Below the pieces are notes generated by a model. It was not told where the DNA came from. It searched no databases and saw only the letters and a program-made list of their open reading frames with translations. Positions 38,213 to 60,229 of a stretch of 64,000 nucleotides of DNA are shown piece by piece. Where the stretch lies: sequence record NC_028840.1; one strand, given 5' to 3'. Position numbers and translations under genes: made by a program. The stretch is from Escherichia phage slur09. Within the stretch, counting starts at the first letter, position 1. Every line of letters starts with the position of its first letter.

Positions 38213-38220
38213 AATTTCAT

Positions 38221-38249: not shown

Positions 38250-38274
38250 ATATTTTATAAATTGGAGGTATATA

Positions 38275-49383: not shown

Positions 49384-49392
49384 GGAGACTAT

Positions 49393-49578
49393 ATGTCTAA
49401 GTTTCAAGAACTCAAGCAAGAGCTAGAAGAGTGTGCCTGCCCTGAGTGTAGAGGAATTGGTGAAAGTTCTGATGCAGAAGCAGGAGATACTTTTTGCAAT
49501 ATCTGGGTTTGCCCAAATTGCAATGGTACAGGTATTAATCCTAACTGTGGTATTTCCCTAGATATTGAACGAGGATAA
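49393..49578 (+). CDS. hypothetical zinc-ribbon mini-protein
   Basis: 61 aa; CACPEC...CPNC. Confidence 0.45.
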   Translation: MSKFQELKQELEECACPECRGIGESSDAEAGDTFCNIWVCPNCNGTGINPNCGISLDIERG

Positions 49579-49679
49579 TACCTGTGAAACTAAAAGATTA
49601 TTATATTGGTTGGTTTGTGGGACTAGTAGTAGGATTTTCACTAGGCTATAATATGTATCAACTAATAAACTGATTACAT

Positions 49680-49756
49680 GGGGGTGTAATCGAATTGGCA
49701 TAGGTACTGGACTTAAAATTCAGGTTTTGTGGGTTCGAATCCCACCACCCCTACCA
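49680..49756 (+). tRNA. tRNA with Leu anticodon TAA on a short-variable-arm (type I) scaffold
   Basis: Acceptor GGGGGTG/CACCCCT, A73, D-loop AATTGGCAT, anticodon arm CTGGA-CTTAAAA-TTCAG, 5-nt variable loop, T-arm GTGGG-TTCGAAT-CCCAC. Confidence 0.6.
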
Positions 49757-49772
49757 AATTAAGGAAATAAGA

Positions 49773-49943
49773 TGTATAGACATCCACCTCCGCCAACACG
49801 TCGTTCTAGAGAAGTTATTCTCATGGAATTGACTAAAAACTTCAAGGCAACTCTTGAAGATAGAGATCTAGGCACGGATGAAGACATTGATTTTATTTGT
49901 AGACTATTAAAGATGAAACTGGAGAAACAACATGGCTAATCCT
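49773..49943 (+). CDS. hypothetical small protein (56 aa)
   Basis: ATG after AAGGAAATAAG; below ORF-track length cutoff; stop overlaps the next ORF start. Confidence 0.4.
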
Positions 49944-50138
49944 GAAATTACCGCACAACGTTTCATGCTTAAAGGCATGATTGCTGAGGCAGGTATAACT
50001 CAAGAGGTTGCAGATTTTCATAAGCAATTTCTTGACATTATAACTCTAGCTAAAGAGACTGGAGAAAAAGAACACGGAGCAGCAATTATGGCTATATCTC
50101 TTATTAGTCTAGACTTGGCTGAAGAGTCTGGAGTTTAG
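49932..50138 (+). CDS. hypothetical protein
   Basis: ORF track, 68 aa. Confidence 0.45.
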   Translation: MANPEITAQRFMLKGMIAEAGITQEVADFHKQFLDIITLAKETGEKEHGAAIMAISLISLDLAEESGV

Positions 50139-50168
50139 CTCCTCCAAACAGAATTTTTAAAAATGTAC

Positions 50169-50198
50169 TTGCCTTTTGCTTTAAATTTCTGGTATAAT
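50169..50198 (+). promoter_or_regulatory. T5-type promoter (TTGCCT -35)
   Basis: TTGCCT-N18-TATAAT. Confidence 0.5.
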
Positions 50199-50228
50199 AG
50201 TTATATAAATTGATGAAGGAGTTAACGA

Positions 50229-50504
50229 ATGCAAAATCGTGTTATAGCAACTGGTATTGAAAGTGCAATCTGTAAATCCTGGGAAGGCTGGGAAGGTGAG
50301 ATTGAATGGCTTTATTTCTACGATGTAGAACTTCTGCCGGAAGTTAAAACTAAATGTGTTGAAGCTGGCATGGCTCCAGATGCAAAAGCTGATATTGATA
50401 TTTCAATGTCTGAACTTAAAGGTCGTGTAATTACTGTTAGTGATGAGGGTGAAGAAGTTTTCGAACTTCCATTCTCCTTAACTGTCACTCCTAAGTTCGA
50501 CTAA
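50229..50504 (+). CDS. hypothetical protein
   Basis: ORF track, 91 aa. Confidence 0.5.
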   Translation: MQNRVIATGIESAICKSWEGWEGEIEWLYFYDVELLPEVKTKCVEAGMAPDAKADIDISMSELKGRVITVSDEGEEVFELPFSLTVTPKFD

Positions 50505-50527
50505 CTAATACAGCACTGAGCAAGTTC

Positions 50528-50567
50528 TTTAAAATTTGACTTGCTCAGTGCCATAAAACTTGATATA
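50528..50567 (+). terminator. long hairpin (13-bp stem GCACTGAGCAAGT/ACTTGCTCAGTGC) whose 3' arm overlaps the -35 of the next promoter
   Basis: Perfect 13-bp inverted repeat; TTGACT -35 lies inside the 3' arm; TATAAT follows 17-18 bp later. Confidence 0.55.
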
Positions 50568-50634
50568 ATATTTATCTAATTTGGAAACATATTTAAAAGT
50601 GTTTAAATGAGGCTTTTTGAATACTTCTAAATAT

Positions 50635-50722
50635 GGGCGTTTATTCCGTAAGTGGTAGCGGAGGGGATTGTAAATCCCTGGTCATTGCGACTCGAGTGGT
50701 TCGACTCCATTAACGCCCACCA
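50635..50722 (+). tRNA. tRNA-Tyr (anticodon GTA), long variable arm
   Basis: Acceptor GGGCGTT/AACGCCC, A73, anticodon arm GGGGA-TTGTAAA-TCCCT, long variable arm, encoded CCA. Confidence 0.75.
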
Positions 50723-50739
50723 AATTAAAGGTAAAGGAT

Positions 50740-51231
50740 ATGTATATTGATCGGATAATTCAAGAAGCTGCAAATAGGGGTATTATACAGTTGGGTTCAC
50801 CCGCTGATATAAACAAAGATCTAATATTAGAAAGCCTCACATTTGGTACAGCTAACTTTGGTCGCGATAGTAATCGTCGATATAGCTTGAAGTTATCTGC
50901 ACTATCTTTTATCAAGTATAACAAAAGTATTGGAGAAAAATCCAGCTGTGGTTTTATTTACGCAATAACTAACCCAGCTTGGGATAACTATGTAAAAATT
51001 GGTATGTCTTCTGATCCTAAAACAAGATTAGGAAATTACCAAACCTATTCTCCTTTACGTGATTATAAGTTAATACATTGGTCATTTTGGTTTAATGCTA
51101 GAGAAGCGGAGAAAATGCTTCATAATAGCTTTCCTGAACGGCTTAATGAATGGGTAGTGTTAGACAGAGGTGTAGACGAAATACTTTCCGAGTTTAACAA
51201 TCTATCCAATAAGCAATTTAAGTCCTGTTAG
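50740..51231 (+). CDS. T5orf172-domain protein (GIY-YIG-like, putative homing endonuclease family)
   Basis: 163 aa; GFIYAITNPAWDNYVKIGMS...RL.NYQTYSP motif shared with ORF 54257..54730. Confidence 0.6.
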   Translation: MYIDRIIQEAANRGIIQLGSPADINKDLILESLTFGTANFGRDSNRRYSLKLSALSFIKYNKSIGEKSSCGFIYAITNPAWDNYVKIGMSSDPKTRLGNYQTYSPLRDYKLIHWSFWFNAREAEKMLHNSFPERLNEWVVLDRGVDEILSEFNNLSNKQFKSC

Positions 51232-51298
51232 ACAAACTGGTAAAGTCACTACCCTTTCAAGGTAGGATTTGCGGGTTCGATCCCCGCACAGGACGCCA
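51222..51298 (+). tRNA. tRNA-Glu (anticodon TTC)
   Basis: Acceptor GTCCTGT/ACAGGAC, anticodon arm CTACC-CTTTCAA-GGTAG, T-arm GCGGG-TTCGATC-CCCGC; 5' end overlaps the last codons of ORF 50740..51231. Confidence 0.75.
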
Positions 51299-51306
51299 AT
51301 TTCTGC

Positions 51307-51383
51307 ATTCCTAGAGTGTTACTGGACAGCATGTCGGTCTCCAAAACCGTACGGTCTAGGTTCGAGTCCTAGTAGGTTTGCCA
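51307..51383 (+). tRNA. tRNA-Trp-like (anticodon CCA) with two U-U mismatches in the acceptor stem
   Basis: Anticodon arm CGGT-CTCCAAA-ACCG, T-arm CTAGG-TTCGAGT-CCTAG, acceptor ATTCCTA/TAGGTTT pairs 5 of 7. Confidence 0.45.
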
Positions 51384-51389
51384 AAATTT

Positions 51390-51464
51390 GCACCTTTAGC
51401 TGAGATGGATTAGCGCTTGCCTGAAGAGCTTGAGAGGTTCGTTCGATTCGAACAGGGTGCACCA
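51390..51464 (+). tRNA. tRNA-Phe (anticodon GAA)
   Basis: Acceptor GCACCTT/AGGGTGC, anticodon loop CTGAAGA, T-arm GTTCG-TTCGATT-CGAAC; anticodon stem has two U-U mismatches. Confidence 0.6.
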
Positions 51465-51481
51465 ATTTGAAGGAGCTGCTG

Positions 51482-51754
51482 ATGCATCCTGAAAACTTCT
51501 TTATTTACTGCGCTGATAAGTCGCTGAAACGTAGAATTAACAAAGTCTATCATTATCGTGCTAGTCAACAGCCTTATGTATATGCTTTTGACGGTGATCA
51601 CATTCCATTAGAACAATTATCCTGTGATTACATGATATTGAAGAACTTTGATGAGACAAAGATCTCAAGCGTTCATAATCGACAGAATCCATTAACGTGG
51701 AAATATAAGAAGAAAAAGAAAGGCATCAAATTCTTAAAAAATGTAGTTGCTTAG
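51482..51754 (+). CDS. hypothetical protein
   Basis: ATG after AAGGAG RBS (ORF track starts at 51467). Confidence 0.45.
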   Translation: MHPENFFIYCADKSLKRRINKVYHYRASQQPYVYAFDGDHIPLEQLSCDYMILKNFDETKISSVHNRQNPLTWKYKKKKKGIKFLKNVVA

Positions 51755-51775
51755 TTTCCAAAAGTTCTGTATAAT
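51747..51775 (+). promoter_or_regulatory. T5-type promoter
   Basis: TTGCTT-N17-TATAAT. Confidence 0.6.
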
Positions 51776-51804
51776 AATTACATAAATTGAACTGGAGAAG
51801 CAAC

Positions 51805-52029
51805 ATGACAGAACAAGAATTGAATGAACGTAAGCTGGTAATGCTTCGCTTACTAAATATTTTCTCTGGTATGGACGGTGGAATTGACTTTGTTCATCTA
51901 CGTTCTTTCGTAGAAGAAGCCGAAGGCGAATCTATCACTAAAATCCTTAAACACATGGGATTACTTTTAGATGCTGCTAATGTGGCTACTGAATATAAAC
52001 TAGAAGATCTACCGAAGCGTGTTAAATGA
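51805..52029 (+). CDS. hypothetical protein
   Basis: ATG after GGAGAAG (ORF track starts at 51787). Confidence 0.45.
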   Translation: MTEQELNERKLVMLRLLNIFSGMDGGIDFVHLRSFVEEAEGESITKILKHMGLLLDAANVATEYKLEDLPKRVK

Positions 52030-52217
52030 AACGATTAGTTAGATTTAAGTGTTGTGGTTCTGAACATATTTTCACATATCTTCGTGAATTTAAAATGTGT
52101 GATTGTGGTAAATCAGGCTATGACTCAGGAGACGGGTTCTACACCCGTACTCTAGGGAACTTCAATGATCTAGAATTTGAAGATCTCGAAAAACAAGATA
52201 AATCGACCGTTGGCTGA
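52026..52217 (+). CDS. hypothetical zinc-ribbon mini-protein
   Basis: 63 aa; CC...CDC pattern; 3' end overlaps the start of tRNA-Cys. Confidence 0.45.
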   Translation: MKRLVRFKCCGSEHIFTYLREFKMCDCGKSGYDSGDGFYTRTLGNFNDLEFEDLEKQDKSTVG

Positions 52218-52279
52218 ATGGCTTAGGCGAAGGATTGCAAATCCTTTTTATGTGAGTTCAAATCTCATGCGGTCGTCCA
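52204..52279 (+). tRNA. tRNA-Cys (anticodon GCA)
   Basis: Acceptor CGACCGT/GCGGTCG, anticodon arm AAGGA-TTGCAAA-TCCTT, T-arm GTGAG-TTCAAAT-CTCAT, encoded CCA. Confidence 0.75.
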
Positions 52280-52281
52280 AT

Positions 52282-52422
52282 TTGCTGAAAGAATTGTTAA
52301 ATCAATTCAGGCACGCGTAGGAACACTGTCTCCGTAATTGAAAGATGAGGCACGGTTTGGAGAGGTATGCTGCTACACGCTACGGTGCTAACTCCGTCTA
52401 GGTGAAAATCCTAGTCAGCAAT
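52282..52422 (+). ncRNA. tRNA-like RNA (about 141 nt) with 7-bp acceptor stem, D-like arm, T-arm and a roughly 59-nt insertion enclosed by an extended anticodon-type stem
   Basis: Perfect acceptor TTGCTGA/TCAGCAA; T-arm CTAGG-TGAAAAT-CCTAG; D-like hairpin GAATT...AATTC; 9-bp stem GCACGCGTAG/CTACGGTGC enclosing 52321-52379; no encoded CCA. Confidence 0.4.
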
Positions 52423-52431
52423 ATAAATTTA

Positions 52432-52514
52432 GGGTCGTTAGCCAAGCGGTTTGGCGGTGGACTGTTAATCCATGTCGAAAGACAACGTAGGTTCGAATCC
52501 TACACGGCCCGCCA
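52432..52514 (+). tRNA. tRNA with Asn anticodon GTT on a long-variable-arm (type II) scaffold
   Basis: Acceptor GGGTCGT/ACGGCCC, G73, D-arm GCCA/TGGC, anticodon arm GTGGA-CTGTTAA-TCCAT, 13-nt variable arm with GTC-GAAA-GAC hairpin, T-arm GTAGG-TTCGAAT-CCTAC. Confidence 0.6.
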
Positions 52515-52616
52515 AATTCTGTGTAGAGTTAAGTAAACCGGTAGCCAACCAGCTATCATTGCTGACATCGAATTCAGCCACAGATACCATTTTCATTAAT
52601 AACTGAGGAAACAAGC

Positions 52617-52802
52617 ATGTCCAAGAATGTAATTGCACAGTTAGAAGTTCATCGTGATAGCACTATCAACAATATTGAAGTTGAGAAGAAATACATCGAA
52701 GAACTTAAACATGATATACTAGTAAGTCTTAATCGTCTTAATGTACGAAAAGACTTTCTTAAAGAACTTAATGCAGCTATTGAAAAACTCAAAGCTGAGT
52801 AA
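52617..52802 (+). CDS. hypothetical protein
   Basis: ORF track, 61 aa. Confidence 0.45.
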   Translation: MSKNVIAQLEVHRDSTINNIEVEKKYIEELKHDILVSLNRLNVRKDFLKELNAAIEKLKAE

Positions 52803-52811
52803 ATGAATTAT

Positions 52812-52888
52812 GCGACCGGGGCTGGCTTGGTAATGGTACTCCCCTGTCACGGGAGAGAATGTGGGTTCGAATCCCATCGGTCGCGCCA
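52812..52888 (+). tRNA. tRNA-Asp (anticodon GTC)
   Basis: Acceptor GCGACCG/CGGTCGC, anticodon arm CTCCC-CTGTCAC-GGGAG, T-arm GTGGG-TTCGAAT-CCCAT, encoded CCA. Confidence 0.75.
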
Positions 52889-52914
52889 AACTAAACTAGC
52901 ACGAGAAATATGCT

Positions 52915-53262
52915 ATGATTAATGCTAAAGAAGAATTGTTACTTGCCCTAAAGAATACTAATTCTGAAGTTAAGTGTATTAAGATAGAATTCGGTTATTA
53001 TGGGGACAAAGAAGTTTGGGTATTACCCGTAGGTTATACAGAAAAAGATATTGAAGATTTTCTAAATAATCTAGACTTTAAATATGATTCTGGTTTCGGT
53101 GGACAATTGCTTTATGGTAACGTATGGTTTACTGATGGAACTTGGTTAGAACGTGGTGAATATGATGGTTCTGAATGGTGGGAATATAAGACTACACCAG
53201 CAATTCCAGAGGAATGTCGAACAATTAATGGTGAAGTAGATCATACATTACTATTAAATTAA
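52915..53262 (+). CDS. hypothetical protein
   Basis: ORF track, 115 aa. Confidence 0.5.
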   Translation: MINAKEELLLALKNTNSEVKCIKIEFGYYGDKEVWVLPVGYTEKDIEDFLNNLDFKYDSGFGGQLLYGNVWFTDGTWLERGEYDGSEWWEYKTTPAIPEECRTINGEVDHTLLLN

Positions 53263-53384
53263 CAAAATTTCAGTGCAGAACACGGAGCTAGCAATTCGGA
53301 AGTGCCGACTCATGATAGGCTGCCTATGTACTTGCGAAGCGGTCGTGTCCAAGACTCGGACTCTTGCACTGAAAACAATCAAAC

Positions 53385-53505
53385 ATTCTAGCGTGGTTGA
53401 TGGGGAAACCAGCTTGGCTAGGGCAGAAGCTCGTTCGATTCGAGTGAAAGAATGGTTCTCGTAAGTCCGCACAAGTGATAACAGGTTCGAGTCCTGTCTA
53501 GAATG
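53385..53505 (+). ncRNA. tRNA-like RNA (about 121 nt) with a roughly 53-nt insertion in the anticodon arm
   Basis: Perfect 7-bp acceptor ATTCTAG/CTAGAAT; D-arm TGGT/ACCA with GG-containing loop; anticodon-type stem CTTG/CAAG enclosing 53418-53470; T-arm ACAGG-TTCGAGT-CCTGT. Confidence 0.4.
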
Positions 53506-53514
53506 ACACTATAA

Positions 53515-53637
53515 AGTTTACTTATTATGTAGGTTCCGATAGATCGGCGGGTCTATTCTGGCATTTAAGAGAGGTCTCGCAAACTTCTTTGTCAGCCGTG
53601 GGGTTGATAGCCTCCAGGTGGCCTACACAATAAGTAA
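53515..53637 (+). repeat. 17-bp inverted repeat (TTTACTTATTATGTAGG / CCTACACAATAAGTAAA, one mismatch) flanking an 89-bp core
   Basis: Arms at 53515-53531 and 53621-53637 are reverse complements with a single mismatch; no ORF inside. Confidence 0.6.
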
Positions 53638-53654
53638 ATTTATTAAAAATTCAT

Positions 53655-53683
53655 TTGCTATTCTGCTTAATTATCTGTATAAT
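53655..53683 (+). promoter_or_regulatory. T5-type promoter
   Basis: TTGCTA-N17-TATAAT. Confidence 0.6.
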
Positions 53684-53715
53684 ATATTTTATAAAGTGAA
53701 GAGAAGGAAAGCAAA

Positions 53716-53913
53716 ATGAAAAAAGTTTTACTGCTGTCTGTATTCCTACTCACTGGTTGTTTTAAACTTGACTCAACCATTAATAAAGAGTATGAATTTG
53801 CTAAAAATTTCTGTGGCGGAGAGAGTAATATAAAGAATTTCTACATATATAGTACAATTCCTAGTACCGTTTATTGTGTAGACGGACGAATTATTAATAT
53901 TCCTCCACAATAA
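53716..53913 (+). CDS. small lipoprotein (lipobox LLTGC)
   Basis: 65 aa; MKKVLLLSVFLLTGC signal peptide with lipobox Cys. Confidence 0.55.
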   Translation: MKKVLLLSVFLLTGCFKLDSTINKEYEFAKNFCGGESNIKNFYIYSTIPSTVYCVDGRIINIPPQ

Positions 53914-53922
53914 AAGAATTAA

Positions 53923-53998
53923 CAGTGCGTAGCGCAGTTGGTAGCGTGGGAGCCTTGGATGCTTCGGGTCGCAGGTTCGAGTCCTGCCGCACTGACCA
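53923..53998 (+). tRNA. tRNA-Pro (anticodon TGG)
   Basis: Acceptor CAGTGCG/CGCACTG, D-arm GCGC/GCGT, anticodon arm GGAGC-CTTGGAT-GCTTC, T-arm GCAGG-TTCGAGT-CCTGC, encoded CCA. Confidence 0.8.
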
Positions 53999-54004
53999 AA
54001 CAAT

Positions 54005-54082
54005 TGCGGGTTAGATCTCTGGTAGAGATCGCTAGTCTCATAAGCTAGAAAGAGGTAGGTTCGATTCCTGCACCCGCTTCCA
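54005..54082 (+). tRNA. tRNA with CAT anticodon (Met/Ile2/initiator candidate), U1-U72 mismatch
   Basis: Acceptor TGCGGGT/ACCCGCT (first pair U-U), D-arm GATC/GATC, anticodon arm CTAGT-CTCATAA-GCTAG, T-arm GTAGG-TTCGATT-CCTGC. Confidence 0.6.
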
Positions 54083-54102
54083 TTTTAATAGAGGATTTCG
54101 AA

Positions 54103-54267
54103 ATGAAAGTATTTCGATTAGTAGTAAGTGACAAACGTTTAGGTAAGAATACCTCAAAATCCTTACTTGCTCATTATGGAAAAGACGAGAAAGAAGTAAT
54201 GGCGGAGTTTGGGATTAATCACCCTTACTTGAAAGTTCACTCTATTAAGGAAGTTTATGCTTATTAA
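54103..54267 (+). CDS. hypothetical small protein (54 aa)
   Basis: ATG shortly after the tRNA; below ORF-track cutoff; stop overlaps the start of ORF 54257. Confidence 0.35.
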   Translation: MKVFRLVVSDKRLGKNTSKSLLAHYGKDEKEVMAEFGINHPYLKVHSIKEVYAY

Positions 54268-54730
54268 CAAGGTGCTTCAAGCTCTAGATCTTCCAGAGCT
54301 CTTTACTATTACCGACTCCTTAATACATCGGTATATGGAAAAGTATAATGAAATCTCTGGTAAAAAAGGGAAACTAAAATCCTCAGAATTTAAGTTCTGT
54401 TATAGAATGGCAGCATTAAACCTCTTAAAGTATAAGAGGGAGCATAAAATTCCTATAACAGAAGGATTTGTCTATGTAATAGGTAATCCAGCATGGCCTG
54501 GACTATATAAGATAGGCATGACAGTAGATGTGAACGAAAGACTGTCTAGTTATCAAACATATTCGCCTTATCGTGATTACAAGTTATACCATTTCAGATT
54601 CTCCTCAGACAAGAGAAGAACTGAAAAAGCATTACATAACCTTCTGAAAGACTACAAAATATCAGGAGAATGGTTTGAAGTACCTCTGTTAGACGCCTTC
54701 AAACTATTAGTAGAAAATTTGGATTGCTAA
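54257..54730 (+). CDS. T5orf172-domain protein (GIY-YIG-like, putative homing endonuclease family)
   Basis: 157 aa; GFVYVIGNPAWPGLYKIGMT...RLSSYQTYSP motif, paralog of 50740..51231. Confidence 0.6.
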   Translation: MLINKVLQALDLPELFTITDSLIHRYMEKYNEISGKKGKLKSSEFKFCYRMAALNLLKYKREHKIPITEGFVYVIGNPAWPGLYKIGMTVDVNERLSSYQTYSPYRDYKLYHFRFSSDKRRTEKALHNLLKDYKISGEWFEVPLLDAFKLLVENLDC

Positions 54731-54798
54731 CTCAACTGGATAAGAGTACCGGACCTTTAATCCGTCAGTTCTGGGTTCGAATCCCAGGCAATCCACCA
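54721..54798 (+). tRNA. tRNA-Lys (anticodon TTT)
   Basis: Acceptor GGATTGC/GCAATCC, D-arm ACTC/GAGT, anticodon loop CCTTTAA, T-arm CTGGG-TTCGAAT-CCCAG, encoded CCA. Confidence 0.8.
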
Positions 54799-54816
54799 AT
54801 TTCAAGAAAAACTCAG

Positions 54817-54845
54817 TTGCTTGATGCTTAATTTCTTGTTATAAT
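54817..54845 (+). promoter_or_regulatory. T5-type promoter driving a 1.2-kb ORF-free tRNA/ncRNA transcript
   Basis: TTGCTT-N17-TATAAT; no ORF of 60 aa or more until 56023. Confidence 0.6.
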
Positions 54846-55083
54846 ATTTATATAAATTGATGAGGAGAAATCCTCATCATAGTTCACTAAGGTATTAGCT
54901 CGACCTAGGACTGGCTGCCAAAAAGCACGATCCCTTCTACTTGGGAGGAGTTCTAGATTAGTCCACTAGATTCAGTGGCAACTGAGTAGTGTATCGGGTT
55001 TGCGAGATGACGTAGTTCCTTCCGCTCGAAGCGAAGGTGCTGTAGTTACGCCGAGCTAATAGCCTTAGTAAACTAAAGAATTT

Positions 55084-55162
55084 GGGGAATGGGTCTGCAT
55101 GGAGTGGACACCTCGCTTGCACCGAGGACATCAGGACGGTTCGATTCCGTTATTCTCCACCA
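55084..55162 (+). tRNA. tRNA-Ala (anticodon TGC)
   Basis: Acceptor GGGGAAT/ATTCTCC (G3-U70 wobble), anticodon arm CCTCG-CTTGCAC-CGAGG, T-arm GACGG-TTCGATT-CCGTT, encoded CCA. Confidence 0.65.
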
Positions 55163-55167
55163 AATAC

Positions 55168-55244
55168 GCGTGATTGATGGAATTGGCATACATACCGTCC
55201 TTAGAAGTCGGGTTTTGAGGGTTCGAATCCCTTGTCACGCACCA
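55168..55244 (+). tRNA. tRNA with Leu anticodon TAG on a short-variable-arm (type I) scaffold
   Basis: Acceptor GCGTGAT/GTCACGC, A73, D-loop AATTGGCAT, anticodon arm CCGTC-CTTAGAA-GTCGG (one U-U), T-arm GAGGG-TTCGAAT-CCCTT; paralogous to the tRNA at 49680. Confidence 0.6.
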
Positions 55245-55356
55245 AATTTGATGGTCAGAGTAAATTAAACCTACTATCTCGGTTGAGCTGTTTTAATGGG
55301 TTCGAATCCCAGCGAGGCGTAACTGCCTGGTGTGATAGAGGCATCATCTTATTATT

Positions 55357-55447
55357 GGAAGAGCAAATCGAATTGGCGACGAAAACCGCTTGGAAAGTGG
55401 CTGACTGGTAAAACGGCTTGAGAGTTCAAATCTCTCCTCTTCCGCCA
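55357..55447 (+). tRNA. tRNA-Ser (anticodon GGA), long variable arm
   Basis: Acceptor GGAAGAG/CTCTTCC, G73, anticodon arm CCGC-TTGGAAA-GTGG, long variable arm, T-arm GAGAG-TTCAAAT-CTCTC, encoded CCA. Confidence 0.65.
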
Positions 55448-55459
55448 AACAATTTATAT

Positions 55460-55554
55460 GGTAGGTCAATCCAATGGCTGGCGCTGGACTCCGACTTGAA
55501 ATCGGTTGATCGTAGTGATACGGTGTAAGGGTTCGATCCCCTTACCTACCTCCA
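55460..55554 (+). tRNA. tRNA-Ser (anticodon TGA), long variable arm
   Basis: Acceptor GGTAGGT/ACCTACC, anticodon arm CCGA-CTTGAAA-TCGG, long variable arm, T-arm AAGGG-TTCGATC-CCCTT, encoded CCA. Confidence 0.65.
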
Positions 55555-55559
55555 AGTCT

Positions 55560-55691
55560 TGAAGTATGCCGGAATCGGTAGACGGGGCTGCCTAAAAGGT
55601 TTACAGGGAACATCCACTCCTTGCAACATACCTCATAAAGCGGCTGAGATAAATGGTCTATCTCGTGAAGGTTCAAGTCCTTCTGCTTCTT
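55560..55691 (+). ncRNA. tRNA-like RNA (about 132 nt): type II-like scaffold with a roughly 48-nt insertion in the anticodon arm
   Basis: Acceptor TGAAGTA/TGCTTCT (6 of 7 pairs, U1-U72), D-arm CCG-GAATCGGTAGA-CGG, anticodon-type stem GCTGC/GCGGC enclosing 55592-55639, variable hairpin GAGATA/TATCTC, T-arm GAAGG-TTCAAGT-CCTTC; no CCA. Confidence 0.35.
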
Positions 55692-55802
55692 GATACATCT
55701 ATGGCTCAAAGTGTAACGGTGCTATTTGATGCTCTTAGTAAGACTTTCCCGACATGCGTTCGGGAGTAAGCTGCTAAGGCTAGAGTAGAAGAGTTTCTGA
55801 GA

Positions 55803-55925
55803 GCCGCCACAATTGAAAATTCGTACTCGTCTTGAGCTGCGTGCAATAGGAGATAACTTGATTAGTATTCTAGAACATGCTAATTGAGGATGGTTTCGCT
55901 AACCCTGCGAGTTTTCAATTGTGGC
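55803..55925 (+). repeat. 14-bp perfect inverted repeat (GCCACAATTGAAAA / TTTTCAATTGTGGC, extendable to about 18 bp with one mismatch) flanking a 95-bp core; 3' arm overlaps the 5' end of tRNA-His
   Basis: Arms at 55803-55816 and 55912-55925 are exact reverse complements. Confidence 0.55.
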
Positions 55926-55997
55926 TATATCATAATTGGTTAATGATCCTGATTGTGAATCAGGCCTATGTGGATTCGAATTCCACTAGCCACCCCA
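55921..55997 (+). tRNA. tRNA-His (anticodon GTG)
   Basis: Acceptor GTGGCTA/TAGCCAC, anticodon arm CCTGA-TTGTGAA-TCAGG, T-arm GTGGA-TTCGAAT-TCCAC, encoded CCA. Confidence 0.8.
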
Positions 55998-56022
55998 AAT
56001 TAACTTAAATAGGAAATAAAAT

Positions 56023-56220
56023 ATGGCTGATTTCTGCAAACAATGCTCCATTGATATGTGGGGCAGAGATACTGGTGATCTTTCTGGTTTGATTACAGAA
56101 GCTGAGGTCAAAGAAGGTTATGGTGCAGTTGTGATTTGCGAAGGGTGCGGAGTTATTCGAGTAGATCATGAAGGCAAACGTTTAGAAGAACCGGAAAACT
56201 TAGGAGAAACAAATGAGTAA
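56023..56220 (+). CDS. hypothetical zinc-ribbon mini-protein
   Basis: 65 aa; CKQCS...CEGCG. Confidence 0.45.
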   Translation: MADFCKQCSIDMWGRDTGDLSGLITEAEVKEGYGAVVICEGCGVIRVDHEGKRLEEPENLGETNE

Positions 56221-56449
56221 TGCTTTAATTAGTGAAATTATGTTAACACGTCTTGCAGAACTGCAAACTCTTCGAGATGAATCTCAGAATAACTTATCCT
56301 ACCATAAACAAATGGTAGATACTCTTACTACTCGTATTGATACTTACGAGCGTGATATTGCAGCATTACAAGCTCTCTTCTCTGTATCAGCACCAGATAC
56401 GTTAGAACAGCCTGCTGTATCCCAGCCAGTAGAAACAGCGTCTAGTTAA
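56213..56449 (+). CDS. hypothetical protein
   Basis: ORF track, 78 aa. Confidence 0.45.
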   Translation: MSNALISEIMLTRLAELQTLRDESQNNLSYHKQMVDTLTTRIDTYERDIAALQALFSVSAPDTLEQPAVSQPVETASS

Positions 56450-56458
56450 TAGCATTCT

Positions 56459-56534
56459 TGGGATGTAGATCAATTGGCAGATCGTCGGCCCCTGACTCCG
56501 AAGGTTCCTGGTTCGATCCCAGGCACTCCAGCCA
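56459..56534 (+). tRNA. tRNA-Gln (anticodon CTG), non-canonical anticodon arm
   Basis: Acceptor TGGGATG/CACTCCA (one A-C mismatch), D-arm GATC/GATC, anticodon region TCGGC-CCCTGAC-TCCGA (C at position 33), T-arm CCTGG-TTCGATC-CCAGG, encoded CCA. Confidence 0.5.
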
Positions 56535-56540
56535 AATAAT

Positions 56541-56616
56541 TGGAGAGTAGTGTAACGGTTAGCACAACGGCCTTTGACTCCGTTAATGGTAGGTTCGATT
56601 CCTCCTTCTCCAGCCA
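56541..56616 (+). tRNA. tRNA-Gln (anticodon TTG)
   Basis: Acceptor TGGAGAG/TTCTCCA, anticodon arm ACGGC-CTTTGAC-TCCGT, T-loop TTCGATT, encoded CCA. Confidence 0.65.
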
Positions 56617-56624
56617 AATAATAA

Positions 56625-56700
56625 GCGGTTAAGCACACGGGTTGTGTCGCAGGCCTTCCAAGCCTCGCTGAGTAGGGTTCGATTCCCTCTAGCCGCTCCA
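56625..56700 (+). tRNA. tRNA-Gly (anticodon TCC)
   Basis: Acceptor GCGGTTA/TAGCCGC, D-arm CACA/TGTG, anticodon arm AGGC-CTTCCAA-GCCT, T-loop TTCGATT, encoded CCA. Confidence 0.7.
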
Positions 56701-56716
56701 ACTTTAAGGAAACATT

Positions 56717-56968
56717 ATGCACGTTTTTGAGTTTCGTAATAAAAGTACCGATAAACGGGTTATTGTTATTGGAGAAACATACCGAGCATACGAACAAACT
56801 GACGGCTCTGTTATCCTGAATGATGAGAAAGGAGGTTTTAGCTTTTATCCAGAAGAACCTTATGAAGAGTTTCGAAAACAATTTAACCTAGACTGGAGAA
56901 AGCATTTAAACACTGTTGCTTCATCTGTAGTATTGCCAACTACCAGTACTGTACTCTCTAATGGCTGA
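56717..56968 (+). CDS. hypothetical protein
   Basis: ORF track, 83 aa. Confidence 0.45.
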   Translation: MHVFEFRNKSTDKRVIVIGETYRAYEQTDGSVILNDEKGGFSFYPEEPYEEFRKQFNLDWRKHLNTVASSVVLPTTSTVLSNG

Positions 56969-57125
56969 TAACCTAAAAGTCAAGATCGATAAACAAAAGA
57001 AACGTGTAGAAGTAGAGATTGGTGAAGAACGTGTAGCCTTCACCTTTGAATTTCTACAACAAATGGCAATGACAGTTATGACTGATAAGTCCCCTGTTAT
57101 TGAAAAAGAAATCCCGTTGAAATAA
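56961..57125 (+). CDS. hypothetical small protein (54 aa)
   Basis: ATG overlapping the previous stop region; below ORF-track cutoff. Confidence 0.35.
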   Translation: MADNLKVKIDKQKKRVEVEIGEERVAFTFEFLQQMAMTVMTDKSPVIEKEIPLK

Positions 57126-57133
57126 CGGGTTCT

Positions 57134-57220
57134 GCTGGGTTGGCAGAATGGTTGAATGCACCTGATTTGTAATCAGGAGGAGTAATCCCGTTGCAGGTTC
57201 GAATCCTGTGCCCAGCACCA
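57134..57220 (+). tRNA. tRNA with Thr anticodon TGT on a long-variable-arm (type II, Leu-like) scaffold
   Basis: Acceptor GCTGGGT/GCCCAGC (G1-C72, C2-G71), A73, D-arm GCA-GAATGGTTGAA-TGC, anticodon arm CCTGA-TTTGTAA-TCAGG, 15-nt variable arm, T-arm GCAGG-TTCGAAT-CCTGT, encoded CCA. Confidence 0.6.
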
Positions 57221-57234
57221 ATTTAAGGACTATT

Positions 57235-57402
57235 ATGTTTAAATTATTAGTAGTTATCTGGTATAGTCAATCAAATAGAGCGAATACCTCCCACGTTATA
57301 GACTTTAATACTAAAAATGAAGCTGAAAAAGCATATGCTAATTTAATAGAACGTAATAAAGAATCTCGTAGTATAGTTTATGAAGTGACTAAACTTTATT
57401 AA
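57235..57402 (+). CDS. hypothetical small membrane-like protein
   Basis: ATG after AAGGA RBS; ORF-track version 57208..57402 overlaps the preceding tRNA. Confidence 0.45.
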   Translation: MFKLLVVIWYSQSNRANTSHVIDFNTKNEAEKAYANLIERNKESRSIVYEVTKLY

Positions 57403-57410
57403 AAATTCAT

Positions 57411-57439
57411 TTGCTTTCTCTCTTATTTATTGTTATAAT
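57411..57439 (+). promoter_or_regulatory. T5-type promoter
   Basis: TTGCTT-N17-TATAAT. Confidence 0.6.
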
Positions 57440-57469
57440 ATTTATATAAATTAATGAGAGGGAAGCCAA

Positions 57470-57763
57470 ATGAAACGTTATCTTTCTGTTGTGTTCCAAA
57501 CTGGTGGTCAACACTATACCTATGAATTTCCTGGCTCTTGGAAGATCAAAGAAGGTGATCAAGTAGTAGTGTTAACACCGCGTGAGGGTTTCAAGGTAGT
57601 AACGGTTAAGCAAGTATTTCCAAAAGATCATGAACCAGCTAAAGGCATTCGCTATAAGATGATTCATGGTGTAGTTCGTCAAGTACCACGAGCGGAAGTC
57701 GAAATCAAAGTAGATAAAGATGGTAAACTTAAATATACCTCTTGCTTAGACGAGTTGCTATAA
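57470..57763 (+). CDS. hypothetical protein
   Basis: ORF track, 97 aa. Confidence 0.5.
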   Translation: MKRYLSVVFQTGGQHYTYEFPGSWKIKEGDQVVVLTPREGFKVVTVKQVFPKDHEPAKGIRYKMIHGVVRQVPRAEVEIKVDKDGKLKYTSCLDELL

Positions 57764-57969
57764 TGAGGATTACTTTCACAGAAAAGATCATGAGTAATGG
57801 TGTTATGATCATTACCGCATGGGATGGTAATCAGTGGTGTAGTGTTTCAGGTATTAAGCCTGAAGAACAAACACTAGAAAATATCTCAAAGATTAAGCGA
57901 AGAATGGCAGAACGTGCACGACTTCCAGGTGCACCTAGAAATGGCAAACGTTCTGCTGTAAAATGTTAA
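57763..57969 (+). CDS. hypothetical protein
   Basis: ATG overlapping the upstream stop (TAATG); ORF track starts at 57742. Confidence 0.45.
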   Translation: MRITFTEKIMSNGVMIITAWDGNQWCSVSGIKPEEQTLENISKIKRRMAERARLPGAPRNGKRSAVKC

Positions 57970-57970
57970 T

Positions 57971-58047
57971 GCTTCGGTAGCTTAGCGATCTAAAGCACTC
58001 GGCCGATAACCGAGAGATCGGGGGTTTAAATCCCTCCCGGAGTACCA
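57971..58047 (+). tRNA. tRNA-Ile (anticodon GAT)
   Basis: Acceptor GCTTCGG/CCGGAGT (two G-U), D-arm GCTT/AAGC, anticodon arm CTCGG-CCGATAA-CCGAG (C at position 33), T-arm GGGGG-TTTAAAT-CCCTC, encoded CCA. Confidence 0.65.
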
Positions 58048-58143
58048 AATTTAGGAACTAAGACTATGCGTCCAGGAAAGTTTAAAAAAGCTAATTGGTC
58101 TAAAGAGTATAAAGAATACTTACTTAGTCTAGTAAAACATAAT

Positions 58144-58219
58144 AGTTAGTTGGCAGAGTGGTTATGCACCTCCTTCATACGGAGCGACTACAGTGGTTCA
58201 AATCCACTACTAACTACCA
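58144..58219 (+). tRNA. tRNA with CAT anticodon (Met/initiator/Ile2 candidate)
   Basis: Acceptor AGTTAGT/ACTAACT, anticodon arm CTCC-TTCATAC-GGAG, T-arm AGTGG-TTCAAAT-CCACT, encoded CCA. Confidence 0.65.
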
Positions 58220-58256
58220 TTAAAAGAGCTAGAGATAGCCAAATTTAGGAGCAGCT

Positions 58257-58451
58257 ATGTTAACAATTAAAATAATGTCAGCCAAGAATGGGGAGCAGAT
58301 TCATACAGGCAAAAGTGTAAGCTTTAATCCTAGAAATAAAAGATTGGCTATAGTTGGAGTAGACCAAGCCATCTTTTTAAAAGAAGATGAAGTAGCATAT
58401 GTCATGAACCAAACTGGTAAGACAGTTTCCGTATACTATGGAAAAGTATAA
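58257..58451 (+). CDS. hypothetical protein
   Basis: ORF track, 64 aa. Confidence 0.45.
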   Translation: MLTIKIMSAKNGEQIHTGKSVSFNPRNKRLAIVGVDQAIFLKEDEVAYVMNQTGKTVSVYYGKV

Positions 58452-58637
58452 AGAATAAAAAGATCAGGCCTTTGTGCCAGATCTCTATGTTTATTAAGCT
58501 GAATGGGACTATCAATCCACGAGCCGGACTACGAGCGATTATCGGGTATTCACTTAATAAATAGCCTGCCTCCCAGTTTTTATCTTGCTTCTGGGTTAAC
58601 AAAAAGCTGAGCCAAATTCTAACATCGGGGAGATCTA

Positions 58638-59006
58638 ATGAAAGCGTATCAAAATATTAAATCTGGCGTAATTAACCTTGTTCATGAAAATCAGATTATT
58701 CAGCTATACTCCGACAACGGTGAACTTAAACAGAAAGTTCTAGTTGAAGATCTAGAAGGTATCACACCACAATTCGATCCCGAAGCCTTCCGTGAAGTCA
58801 AAGTGGAAGTCGCCCCTCAAATTGAAGGTGGTCAACACCTAAATGTCAATGTGTTAAGTCGTGATCAGCTTTTGGATGCACAGAAACATCCTGAAAAATA
58901 CCCTCAATTAACTATCCGTGTTTCAGGATACGCTGTACGTTTTAATGCACTGACGCGTGAACAACAGAACGACGTTATTAGTCGTACATTTACTCAGGCG
59001 ATGTAA
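58638..59006 (+). CDS. hypothetical protein
   Basis: ORF track, 122 aa. Confidence 0.5.
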
Positions 59007-59087
59007 TGGGGTTTGGGTACGATTTCTCCGAACTACGTGAGGTAGTCGAGCAAACTCCATTTATCTCCCAAGTTTTAGGAGAAATGT

Positions 59088-59402
59088 GTGGATCGAGCAT
59101 TAAGACGCCATCACCGGCAACGTGTGAAGAACAACCGCAGGAAGTATTGGACAGTCTTCCCACATGAAGAAAGCCCTAAGCGGTTAGGTATTATCACTAC
59201 TACTCCTTGCATCTGTTCTTGTTGGATGTGTGGGAACCCTCGCAAGTACTATAAGAATAGTAAAGCAGGCATGAAAATTTCGGAGATTAGAAAAATGGAA
59301 GCAATGATTATGGGCATCTCAAATGATGAATTTGATGGCTTTGTAGGATTCGGAGAAGGAATCAGTTCAGGCTGTTTCGAAGATGAACGCCCCGATCTGT
59401 GA
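59088..59402 (+). CDS. hypothetical Cys-rich basic protein
   Basis: 104 aa; basic N-terminus and CICSCWMCGNP cluster. Confidence 0.45.
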   Translation: MDRALRRHHRQRVKNNRRKYWTVFPHEESPKRLGIITTTPCICSCWMCGNPRKYYKNSKAGMKISEIRKMEAMIMGISNDEFDGFVGFGEGISSGCFEDERPDL

Positions 59403-59411
59403 TTAATAACA

Positions 59412-59447
59412 AACCCCAGCTATTGAATAAGTAGTCTGGGGTTTTTC
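59412..59447 (+). terminator. Rho-independent terminator (ACCCCAG ... CTGGGGT plus T-run)
   Basis: GC stem followed by TTTTTCT. Confidence 0.65.
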
Positions 59448-59523
59448 TGTATATAGGTAAATAGTTTATGTATAATAAAATTCATCCACATTAGGTTAAT
59501 TTAAAAGACTTAATGGAGGTAAT

Positions 59524-59871
59524 ATGAGCCGTACTTATCGTAAACAATCTGGTGATCAGTGGTGGAAGTCTAAAGAACAATTCTCTCAAGAATATTCTTT
59601 CCTTAAAGAAAATGGCTACTGGATTCGTGTTATTTATGCTAAATCCTGGGATGATGTAGAACAGGAAATGAAGGAAGCAACCATTCGTAATGAGAAAAAG
59701 GATGGTTATAACTGGAATTCTATTAGTAAGAATGTTAAGTGGCATTCTAATAAAATGGTTCGTCAAGGGAATCGTCAAGAACTCCACCGCGTGATGAAAG
59801 ATCCAGAAAATTACGACTATAATCGCGATCATGACATGCGTAAGCGTGGATTATGGTGGTGCTATGACTAA
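59524..59871 (+). CDS. hypothetical protein
   Basis: ORF track, 115 aa. Confidence 0.5.
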   Translation: MSRTYRKQSGDQWWKSKEQFSQEYSFLKENGYWIRVIYAKSWDDVEQEMKEATIRNEKKDGYNWNSISKNVKWHSNKMVRQGNRQELHRVMKDPENYDYNRDHDMRKRGLWWCYD

Positions 59872-59888
59872 ATTCTGAAATAATTCAT

Positions 59889-59917
59889 TTGCTAAACCTC
59901 TCTTTTCTTGATATAAT
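59889..59917 (+). promoter_or_regulatory. T5-type promoter
   Basis: TTGCTA-N17-TATAAT. Confidence 0.6.
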
Positions 59918-59947
59918 ATATTTATAAATTGATGAGAGAGGTTTGAA

Positions 59948-60229
59948 ATGAAAAATCGCCTAGACTGTGCTGTTCATGTTCTTGAACATGATGTTGCGGG
60001 AACCTGTATGTCTTACCACGAAGCAGGTCGTTTAATTAAAGAACGTGTGGCAGATGTGTGCGGATTGAAGATTACTGCTGAGGAAGCTGATGATCTTTTA
60101 GGTCAAGCACTGGAGAAAACCGAAATGTTCCTCTGCGATTCTTGTTCTTGGTGGTGTGAAGCTCACGAACGTTCTTTCAACGATTATGATGTATGTCGTG
60201 ATTGTAGTGGGGAGGATGAAGATGAATAA
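59948..60229 (+). CDS. hypothetical Cys-rich acidic protein
   Basis: 93 aa; CDSCSWWC...CRDCSG. Confidence 0.45.
   Translation: MKNRLDCAVHVLEHDVAGTCMSYHEAGRLIKERVADVCGLKITAEEADDLLGQALEKTEMFLCDSCSWWCEAHERSFNDYDVCRDCSGEDEDE

What the first reader, a model, noticed from the sequence alone, without database searches (positions are those of the whole stretch)
55803..55925. Second long inverted repeat whose 3' arm overlaps the 5' end of tRNA-His
A 14-bp perfect inverted repeat (about 18 bp with one mismatch) brackets 95 bp, and the 3' arm includes the first five nucleotides of the tRNA-His acceptor stem. A hairpin competing with the tRNA acceptor stem could control tRNA-His maturation or mark an insertion event. 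The architecture matches the 53515-53637 element although the sequence differs.
Basis: seen in the sequence. Interest (0 to 1): 0.55.

Follow-up and report, generated by a model that had tools for sequence, protein, structure and literature searches.

The report
Closing stem of phage T5 RNAIII
The inverted repeat is real, but it is the closing stem of RNAIII, a small stable RNA of unknown function already annotated in phage T5, and its position suggests that a host double-strand RNA nuclease cuts here to free the neighbouring histidine tRNA.

Summary
The repeat is confirmed. In RNA, 55806-55825 pairs with 55906-55925 over 20 contiguous base pairs (two G·U). The 3' arm covers nucleotides 1-5 of tRNA-His.

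It is not a new element. The window is a T5-like phage, and this is the terminal helix of rnaIII (window 55814-55919). GenBank annotates it as 'stable RNA with unknown functions' in T5, BF23, phage 5 and DT57C. It lies between RNA I (55703-55809) and tRNA-His.

Three things go beyond the annotation:
- **End geometry.** The annotated RNAIII ends lie opposite each other inside the helix. Both follow CAAU in a palindromic CAAUUG, which leaves a 2-nt 3' overhang. That is the geometry of an RNase III double cut.
- **Variable cargo, constant stem.** Relatives carry five unrelated sequences in this slot (42-147 nt). All keep a 14-21 bp stem with the same first and last pair, and show compensatory changes.
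- **Specific and competing.** Only tRNA-His among 25 tRNAs has such a stem. In the uncut precursor it is predicted to beat the tRNA acceptor stem by 9.5 kcal/mol.

My best reading, at moderate confidence, is an RNase III processing helix that releases RNA I, RNAIII and tRNA-His. RNase III dependence is inferred, not shown. The object is already known and interest is modest.

The parts
55703..55809 (+). RNA I (107 nt), an annotated stable RNA. Its 5' GGCUC pairs with GAGCC (55801-55805), followed by G-CCA, which makes a tRNA-like acceptor end. Its GCCA tail (55806-55809) is the outermost part of the left arm.
   Evidence: Mapped exactly from the T5 AY543070 annotation. Fold.
55806..55825 (+). 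Left (5') arm of the 20-bp helix: GCCACAAUUGAAAAUUCGUA.
55810..55815 (+). CAAUUG palindrome on the left arm. The annotated RNAIII 5' end implies a cut between 55813 and 55814.
   Evidence: plus direct reading of the sequence.
55814..55919 (+). RNAIII (106 nt), annotated 'stable RNA with unknown functions'. It has a 12-bp terminal stem, a 2-nt 3' overhang and a multi-hairpin interior.
   Evidence: Annotated in AY543070, AJ604531, KM979354, AY692264 and AJ604530. The 130 nt upstream of tRNA-His are identical to T5. Fold.
55857..55888 (+). Internal 12-bp hairpin of RNAIII (CUUGAUUAGUAU / AUGCUAAUUGAG, 8-nt loop).
   Evidence: Predicted. Relatives carry uncompensated changes here, so comparison does not support it.
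55906..55925 (+). Right (3') arm: UGCGAGUUUUCAAUUGUGGC. Its last 5 nt are tRNA-His positions 1-5.
55916..55921 (+). CAAUUG palindrome on the right arm. The annotated RNAIII 3' end and tRNA-His 5' end imply a cut between 55919 and 55920. This is offset 2 bp from the left-arm cut.
55920..55997 (+). tRNA-His (GUG). ARAGORN and Rfam start it at G55921. The T5 annotation starts at U55920, which is position -1. That position is U here, whereas E. coli tRNA-His has an encoded G-1 (my knowledge).

Best explanation
The inverted repeat is the closing helix of the RNAIII gene of a T5-like phage.

In the polycistronic precursor (RNA1, RNA I, RNAIII, tRNA-His) a 20-bp RNA duplex forms. It pairs the 3' GCCA tail of RNA I, a 4-nt spacer and the first 12 nt of RNAIII with the last 12 nt of RNAIII, the two leader nucleotides (of which -2 is RNAIII's last nucleotide) and nucleotides 1-5 of tRNA-His. 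The left arm is transcribed before the tRNA's own 3' acceptor strand, so the duplex forms first and locks up the tRNA 5' end.

Host RNase III then makes a staggered double cut, symmetric about the dyad of the conserved CAAUUG palindrome (55813|55814 and 55919|55920). This has three effects:
- It releases RNAIII with a 12-bp stem and a 2-nt 3' overhang.
- It leaves RNA I with a CAAU tail, which is trimmed back to CCA.
- It leaves tRNA-His with a single U at -1, now free to fold into its cloverleaf.

Shown: the helix, its conservation, the annotated ends and the predicted competition. Inferred: that RNase III is the enzyme, and that tRNA-His maturation needs the cut.
For: - **Identity.** The 130 nt upstream of tRNA-His are identical to T5, and the site is annotated rnaIII.
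- **End geometry.** With the pairing 55806+k: 55925-k, the RNAIII 5' end (55814) pairs with 55917 and its 3' end is 55919. That is a 2-nt 3' overhang. Both cuts follow CAAU of a palindromic CAAUUG, so they are dyad-symmetric. A double cut leaving 2-nt 3' overhangs is the established RNase III pattern (PMC6212723).
- **RNase III position preferences.** The pairs at positions D and D' are A-U (55816-55915 and 55809-55922). That paper reports these as the most strongly A-U/U-A-preferring positions.
- **Duplex length.** 20 bp, about two helical turns.
- **Comparative evidence.** Five slot alleles have unrelated interiors (blastn-short finds only the basal 11-15 nt shared, apart from 20 nt between the L020-type and S124 hairpin alleles). 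All keep a 14-21 bp closing helix, of which 12-21 bp are contiguous from the base, starting at the same G and ending at tRNA-His nt 5. On the register-aligned arms 97.5% of cells pair, against 30-46% when the partner is slid. Nine of 20 pairs change on both sides, and 0 of 500 shuffles reach the covariation score. In phage S124, CAAUUG has become CAAUUA with the matching UAAUUG on the other arm. The invariant block is the basal 11 bp, which spans the inferred cleavage dyad and both D positions.
- **Cargo is dispensable.** S124 carries only a 42-nt hairpin in the slot.
- **Specificity.** Only tRNA-His of 25 tRNAs has such a stem.
- **Energetics.** The uncut precursor keeps the long stem by 9.5 kcal/mol. 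After the inferred cut, the U-1 tRNA folds as a cloverleaf by itself, and the residual 6-bp intermolecular duplex is worth only about -6 kcal/mol.
- **Parallel case.** RNAIV's annotated ends also lie opposite each other inside a 20-bp stem.
- **Precedent.** E. coli RNase III takes part in maturation of phage T4 tRNAs (review PMC4810235).
Against: - No RNA end-mapping or rnc-mutant data were available. The RNAIII ends are GenBank annotations from the Ksenzenko laboratory, and I could not read the primary papers to see how they were determined.
- The two pairs between the inferred cuts are A-U and U-A, whereas in vivo E. coli sites prefer at least one G-C there.
- Only 7 bp lie outside the dyad before the helix ends at the RNA I acceptor stem. 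That is shorter than the roughly 11 bp seen on each side of typical sites.
- RNAIV shows a 1-nt rather than 2-nt overhang, and has a G-C at one D position (and my reading of the sequence).
- RNase P alone could produce the junction between RNAIII and tRNA-His.
- The eight rows used for covariation represent five alleles and were aligned by register from the helix base, not by homology.
Confidence: 0.55

Rival explanations
1. The helix only clamps RNAIII for stability, and the ends come from other nucleases. RNase P cuts at the tRNA-His 5' end and so creates the RNAIII 3' end. Another endonuclease followed by 3' exonuclease trimming makes the RNA I 3' end and the RNAIII 5' end. The 2-nt overhang is then a coincidence.
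For: - RNAIII abuts tRNA-His directly, and RNase P is the general 5' maturase of tRNAs.
- RNA2H, another T5 stable RNA, keeps its whole 15-bp terminal stem, with ends at the helix base. Terminal stems are therefore a general feature of these RNAs.
- The A/A' pairs do not match the in vivo RNase III preference.
Against: - E. coli has no 5'-to-3' exonuclease (my knowledge), so the RNAIII 5' end at 55814 must be an endonucleolytic cut 8 bp inside a 20-bp duplex. That is inaccessible to single-strand-specific RNase E.
- The site AAU|UG lacks the U at +2 that marks RNase E sites (PMC5222698 abstract).
- With U-1 opposite C73 unpaired, RNase P should cut at 55920|55921, not at 55919|55920 (inference from the known G-1:C73 rule).
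- RNase P needs a formed acceptor stem, which is predicted not to form in the uncut precursor.
- This model does not explain why the helix continues through the spacer into RNA I's tail and the tRNA in all five alleles.
Confidence: 0.27
2. The repeat marks a DNA-level insertion or cassette-exchange site. On this view a palindrome GCCACAATTGTGGC joining RNA I to tRNA-His was split by inserted cassettes. The repeated CAATTG would be a target duplication, and the outer pairing would have no RNA function.
For: - CAATTG occurs at both ends of every allele, and GCCACAATTGTGGC would be a perfect palindrome.
- There are five discrete alleles, each more than 90% identical internally, with no intermediates.
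- RNA I alleles and slot alleles assort independently. CitS1 and Sds2 have RNA I about 70% identical to the window but a slot 96% identical. IrmaTschudi has RNA I 98% identical but an unrelated slot.
- HNH homing endonuclease genes are scattered through this tRNA region in relatives.
Against: - Each cassette is single-copy in its genome and has no similarity elsewhere in the window (one place per record).
- No empty-site allele was found in IMG/VR.
- Beyond the shared 11 bp, every cassette has its own different but still complementary arms.
- Non-Watson-Crick positions are mostly G.U, which pairs only in the + strand RNA.
- A compensatory G-C to A-U change lies inside the supposed target duplication in S124.

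Cassette exchange by recombination at the conserved junctions is likely real, but it is compatible with the RNA-processing model.
Confidence: 0.08
3. The helix is a conditional switch, a riboregulator that releases or withholds tRNA-His or RNA I in response to a signal such as a ligand, a protein or temperature.
For: There are two mutually exclusive pairings for tRNA-His nt 1-5, separated by a large predicted energy gap.
Against: - The interior, where a sensor would sit, is replaced by unrelated sequences or reduced to a bare hairpin in relatives.
- No Rfam family matches.
- Variation within the T5-type interior is not compensatory.
Confidence: 0.04

Closest known systems
rnaIII (RNAIII) of bacteriophage T5, BF23, phage 5 and DT57C (GenBank misc_RNA, 'stable RNA with unknown functions')
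   Same: Same sequence, length (106 nt) and position between rnaI and tRNA-His.
   Different: Nothing differs. The window element is this gene. The annotations say nothing about the helix, the processing enzyme or the allelic variation.
RNase III processing stems that flank 16S and 23S rRNA in E. coli rrn operons
   Same: A stable RNA is excised from a long duplex formed by its flanking sequences, by a staggered double cut that leaves 2-nt 3' overhangs. The neighbouring RNAs in the same transcript are released (general knowledge; PMC4810235; PMC6212723).
   Different: - The cargo here is 106 nt, not 1.5-2.9 kb.
- The outer part of the duplex is made from functional ends of two other stable RNAs (the RNA I CCA tail and the tRNA-His 5' strand).
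- RNase III dependence has not been shown.
RNase III-dependent maturation in the phage T4 tRNA cluster, which also encodes two stable RNAs of unknown function (species 1 and 2, rnaC and rnaD)
   Same: A phage tRNA cluster is co-transcribed with small stable RNAs of unknown function, and host RNase III takes part in tRNA maturation (PMC4810235). The T4 stable RNAs are from my own knowledge.
   Different: RNAIII shows no detectable sequence similarity outside phages named as T5-like. The T4 sites were not compared here.
Miniature inverted-repeat insertion elements
   Same: Terminal inverted repeats flanked by a repeated short palindrome.
   Different: - Single copy.
- The arms differ between alleles beyond 11 bp.
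- G.U wobble pairs point to RNA-level pairing.

Membership tests
T5-group rnaIII stable RNA | Sequence identity to the annotated rnaIII | tested here: met
   Window 55818-55913 is 100% identical to T5 AY692264 and BF23 AJ604530, where it is annotated rnaIII. The 130 nt upstream of tRNA-His are identical to T5 locus L014.
T5-group rnaIII stable RNA | Position between rnaI and tRNA-His on the same strand | tested here: met
   The annotated features map exactly onto the window: RNA I 55703-55809, RNAIII 55814-55919, tRNA-His 55920-55997.
T5-group rnaIII stable RNA | Accumulates as a stable RNA of about 106 nt in infected cells | not testable with these tools
   This rests on GenBank annotation by the laboratory that studied T5 stable RNAs. 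The primary papers are not in the searchable library.
RNase III double-cleavage substrate | Continuous dsRNA of about two helical turns | tested here: met
   20 contiguous pairs, 55806-55825 / 55906-55925.
RNase III double-cleavage substrate | Cuts on both strands offset so as to leave 2-nt 3' overhangs | tested here: met
   This uses the annotated ends. 55814 pairs with 55917 and the 3' end is 55919, so the overhang is 2 nt and the cuts are symmetric about the CAAUUG dyad. It depends on the accuracy of the annotation. RNAIV gives only a 1-nt overhang.
RNase III double-cleavage substrate | A-U or U-A pairs at positions D and D'; G-C preferred at the two pairs between the cuts (Altuvia et al. 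2018) | tested here: inconclusive
   D and D' are both A-U, which fits. The two central pairs are A-U and U-A, which does not fit the preference (with the sequence).
RNase III double-cleavage substrate | Cleavage depends on rnc in vivo, or occurs with purified enzyme | not testable with these tools
   No transcript-end or mutant data were available.
Mobile inverted-repeat element (MITE-like) | Multiple dispersed copies with the same termini | tested here: not met
   One copy in the window. 283 places in 281 records for the T5-type, and one place per record for the other alleles.
Mobile inverted-repeat element (MITE-like) | Existence of an empty target site | tested here: not met
   GCCGCCACAATTGTGGCTATA has 0 matches in IMG/VR. 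Only that collection was scanned.
Any Rfam family | Covariance-model match | tested here: not met
   No hit at E <= 1 on 55700-55920. None at E <= 0.1 in the slot of four other alleles.
Intrinsic terminator | GC-rich hairpin followed by a free U-run | tested here: not met
   The only match is a weak 5-bp one at 55895-55911, and its U-run is paired within the long stem. The scan found 3 matches against a shuffle mean of 1.4, sd 1.1.

The most novel reading that the evidence does not exclude
T5-like phages may mature their tRNA-His by a dedicated RNase III route rather than by the normal RNase P rule.

The gene has U instead of the encoded G at -1, so RNase P could not leave the extra 5' nucleotide that histidyl-tRNA synthetase recognises. 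The conserved helix would place an RNase III cut exactly between -2 and -1, giving a tRNA-His that carries U-1 with a 5' phosphate.

The space enclosed by the helix would then be a free 'cargo bay'. Unrelated small stable RNAs (RNAIII and four other alleles) have been swapped into it. They may be by-products, or they may be decoys against host defences.
Probability: 0.2. Interest if true: 0.6.

Novelty: already known. Interest (0 to 1): 0.3.

Why it matters
The T5 stable RNAs (I, III, IV, 2H) are still annotated as of unknown function in the current GenBank records. This analysis does not reveal what RNAIII does in trans.

It does suggest that the conserved, selected part is the helix rather than the cargo. 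It also gives a sharp, cheap test: compare RNA ends in an RNase III mutant host. If the helix is an RNase III site that frees tRNA-His, it would be a compact example of a phage tRNA whose maturation depends on dsRNA cleavage. It might also explain how a tRNA-His gene without an encoded G-1 becomes functional.

For genome annotation, long stems that overlap tRNA ends in T5-like phages should be read as stable-RNA genes, not as insertions.

Tried and rejected
- **Rfam.** cmscan of 44000-60000 at E <= 1, and of four other alleles at E <= 0.1, found only tRNAs near the element.
- **Literature.** Searches for T5 RNAIII, its processing or T5 small-RNA transcriptomics found nothing in the open library. 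Two searches failed on term syntax.
- **Empty-slot allele.** None in IMG/VR.
- **Metagenome scan.** Anchored on tRNA-His, it returned only 8 contigs and added one allele, L037.
- **MITE or repeat-family idea.** Rejected: single copy and no similarity between cassettes or to RNAIV and RNA2H.
- **Promoter or terminator reading.** No + strand promoter-like site, and only a weak terminator-like match inside the stem.
- **Coding reading.** Only spurious ORFs of 46 aa or less overlap the element, for example 55877-56008, which runs through the tRNA.
- **Covariation inside the T5-type RNAIII.** Variation is too low, and the few changes in the 12-bp internal hairpin are not compensatory.
- **RNAIV as a second RNase III case.** Only partly consistent: a 1-nt overhang, a G-C at one D position, and an uncompensated T-to-C in the outer stem in two relatives.
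- **Deeper conservation.** Proteus phage 2 (Novosibvirus) has a hairpin that overlaps the tRNA-His 5' end. Its 14 close relatives are at least 95% identical over the query, so no covariation could be extracted.

Full report
**Observation**

The inverted repeat exists. The repeat finder gives arms 55806-55823 and 55908-55925 (18 nt, one non-complementary position, 84 nt apart). The odd position is T55820 opposite G55911, which is a U.G wobble in RNA. Counting wobbles, the helix runs 20 contiguous pairs, 55806-55825 with 55906-55925.

tRNA-His is called at 55921-55997 by ARAGORN and Rfam.

The repeat is more than chance would give:
- Inverted repeats with at least 14 perfect bp within 200 nt occur twice in the window, against 0.12 expected from dinucleotide shuffles.
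- The fold of 55800-55930 is -46.8 kcal/mol, z = -5.4.
- The other 24 tRNAs in the window have at most 11 contiguous pairs reaching into their 5' ends.

**What it is**

The window is a T5-like phage of the Demerecviridae. The region 55200-56100 is up to 99.3% identical to Tequintavirus genomes, and the 130 nt upstream of tRNA-His are identical to phage T5 itself.

Four GenBank records from the laboratory that characterised the T5 tRNA region annotate this stretch: T5 AY543070 and AY692264, phage 5 AJ604531 and BF23 AJ604530. So does DT57C KM979354. The annotation reads, in order: RNA1 (tRNA-like), RNA I (107 nt), RNAIII (106 nt, 'stable RNA with unknown functions'), then tRNA-His.

Exact mapping onto the window:

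| Feature | Window coordinates |
|---|---|
| RNA I | 55703-55809 |
| RNAIII | 55814-55919 |
| tRNA-His, as annotated | 55920-55997 |

The 'matching' element at 53515-53637 is RNAIV (53527-53629), another annotated stable RNA that lies inside a 20-bp stem (53514-53533 / 53622-53641). A third one, RNA2H (54893-55064), has a 15-bp terminal stem. No Rfam family covers any of them.

**Anatomy**

RNA I begins GGCUC. This pairs with GAGCC at 55801-55805 and is followed by G-CCA, a tRNA-like acceptor end. The long helix starts at that G (55806).

From the base inward, the left arm consists of RNA I's GCCA tail, the 4-nt spacer CAAU and the first 12 nt of RNAIII. The right arm consists of the last 12 paired nt of RNAIII, its two 3'-terminal nucleotides, the U at tRNA position -1, and tRNA nt 1-5.

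The annotated RNAIII ends sit opposite each other in the middle of the helix. Position 55814 pairs with 55917, and the 3' end is 55919, which makes a 2-nt 3' overhang. Both cuts follow CAAU within CAAUUG. That hexamer is its own reverse complement and occupies the same position on both arms, so the cuts are symmetric about the dyad.

A double cut with 2-nt 3' overhangs is the hallmark of RNase III (PMC6212723). The pairs four positions either side of the dyad centre (D and D') are A-U, which matches the strongest in vivo preference reported there. The two central pairs are A-U and U-A, where G-C is preferred, so the fit is partial.

**Comparison with relatives**

I collected the slot between RNA I's CCA and tRNA-His from 40-odd loci. 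Five alleles exist:

| Allele | Length, G of GCCAC to tRNA nt 5 | Records in the phage collection |
|---|---|---|
| T5-type | 120 nt | 281 |
| L020-type | 77 nt | 65 |
| L037-type | 135 nt | 55 |
| L012-type | 147 nt | 15 |
| Bare hairpin (Salmonella phage S124) | 42 nt | 2 (one phage) |

Their interiors share no detectable similarity. Yet every allele has a closing helix of 14-21 bp, of which 12-21 bp are contiguous from the base. Each helix starts at the same G and ends at tRNA nt 5.

On the register-aligned arms, 97.5% of cells pair, against 30-46% when the partner is slid by 1-3 columns. Nine of 20 pairs change on both sides, and no shuffle out of 500 reaches the observed covariation score. 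There are 14 G.U cells against 4 other non-pairs, which points to the + strand RNA. S124 carries CAAUUA with UAAUUG, a compensatory change inside the conserved core. The invariant block is the basal 11 bp, which is the segment spanning the inferred cleavage dyad and both D positions.

There is a caveat. The eight rows represent five alleles, and the arms were aligned by register, not by homology.

RNA I alleles and slot alleles assort independently. The modules are therefore exchanged by recombination at the conserved junction.

**Energetics**

For RNA I through tRNA-His, the MFE (-102.3 kcal/mol) keeps the long helix, with pair probabilities of at least 0.997. Forcing the tRNA acceptor stem gives -92.8. 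The model ignores tRNA tertiary structure. Still, the left arm is transcribed long before the tRNA's 3' strand, so the helix should form first.

After the inferred cut, the U-1 tRNA-His folds as a cloverleaf by itself. RNAIII keeps a 12-bp stem with a 2-nt overhang. The leftover 6-bp intermolecular duplex is worth only about 6 kcal/mol.

**Best explanation and rivals**

My best reading is that the helix is an RNase III processing site. It separates RNA I, RNAIII and tRNA-His, and it frees the tRNA 5' end. E. coli RNase III is known to take part in T4 tRNA maturation (PMC4810235), and rRNA operons use the same architecture.

- **RNase P plus another nuclease.** The main rival holds that RNase P makes the RNAIII/tRNA junction, another nuclease makes the 5' end, and the helix merely stabilises RNAIII. 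Against it, the 5' end lies 8 bp inside a duplex, and the site lacks the RNase E signature. U-1 cannot pair with C73, so it cannot shift RNase P to the -2/-1 bond.
- **DNA insertion.** This reading explains the cassette polymorphism. It does not explain the wobble pattern, the single-copy status or the compensatory change.
- **Conditional switch.** This is unlikely because the interior is replaceable.

**Novelty**

The element is already known as rnaIII. The helix geometry, the His-specificity and the allelic 'cargo bay' are, as far as I could find, not described in the open literature. I could not read the original 1980s papers. Interest is modest unless the RNase III-dependent, G-1-less tRNA-His route proves true.

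Noticed in passing
window 55920 (position -1 of tRNA-His); also L054, L056, L058: The phage tRNA-His has the same acceptor stem and C73 as E. coli tRNA-His (my knowledge) but T, not G, at -1. The T5 annotation nevertheless includes this U in a 78-nt tRNA. T at -1 is kept in all five slot alleles. It is also seen upstream of tRNA-His in Proteus phage 2, Pectobacterium phage Wc4 and Salmonella phage SPLA5a.
   Followed up: partly
window 53514-53641: RNAIV (annotated 53527-53629) lies inside a 20-bp stem. Its ends are opposite each other with a 1-nt 3' overhang, and an A.C mismatch sits at the 5' end. The outer stem carries an uncompensated T-to-C change in two relatives.
   Followed up: partly
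window 54893-55064: RNA2H (172 nt, an annotated stable RNA) has a 15-bp terminal stem, 54893-54907 / 55047-55061. Its ends are at the helix base, unlike RNAIII and RNAIV.
   Followed up: no
window 55357-55447, 55460-55554, 49097-49171, 44817-44888, 56624-56697: These are tRNA genes that ARAGORN did not call in this window. Two are tRNA-Ser genes annotated in relatives. The first of them (55357-55447) was also missed by Rfam at E <= 1. The other three positions are Rfam tRNA hits.
   Followed up: partly
window 55558-55702: RNA1, an annotated 'tRNA-like stable RNA' of about 145 nt, has a T-arm-like GGUUCAAGUCC and directly abuts RNA I. A similar pairing of a tRNA-like RNA with a stem RNA recurs upstream as RNA2 followed by RNAIV.
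   Followed up: no
window 55245-55356 and 53510-53513: The window lacks genes that relatives carry at these points: the HNH endonuclease gene found between tRNA-Leu and tRNA-Ser in T5 (hegC), and a 350-bp segment that phage 5 carries between RNA2 and RNAIV, containing a small ORF (trn 2.10.1); phage 5's hegB lies downstream of RNAIV and was not compared with the window. Other relatives have a 225-248 bp insert with a small ORF in the first gap. A T-arm-like remnant (GGGTTCGAATCCC) sits at about 55298-55311.
   Followed up: no
L055 (Escherichia phage SelmaRatti) 901-991: The tRNA-His 5' half is fused after the anticodon arm to an unrelated 3' half. The acceptor strand of that 3' half cannot pair with GUGGCUA, so the tRNA is chimeric and probably non-functional. 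RNAIII and the stem are intact.
   Followed up: no
L054 (Proteus phage 2, Novosibvirus) about 640-705: In a distant genus of the same family, an unannotated tRNA-Phe is followed by two hairpins. The second has a 13-bp helix whose 3' arm includes tRNA-His nt 1-2, with irregular pairing that extends to nt 10.
   Followed up: partly
window 38202-38250: This is the only other inverted repeat in the window with at least 14 perfect bp. It is an AT-rich perfect 18-bp hairpin with a 13-nt loop.
   Followed up: no
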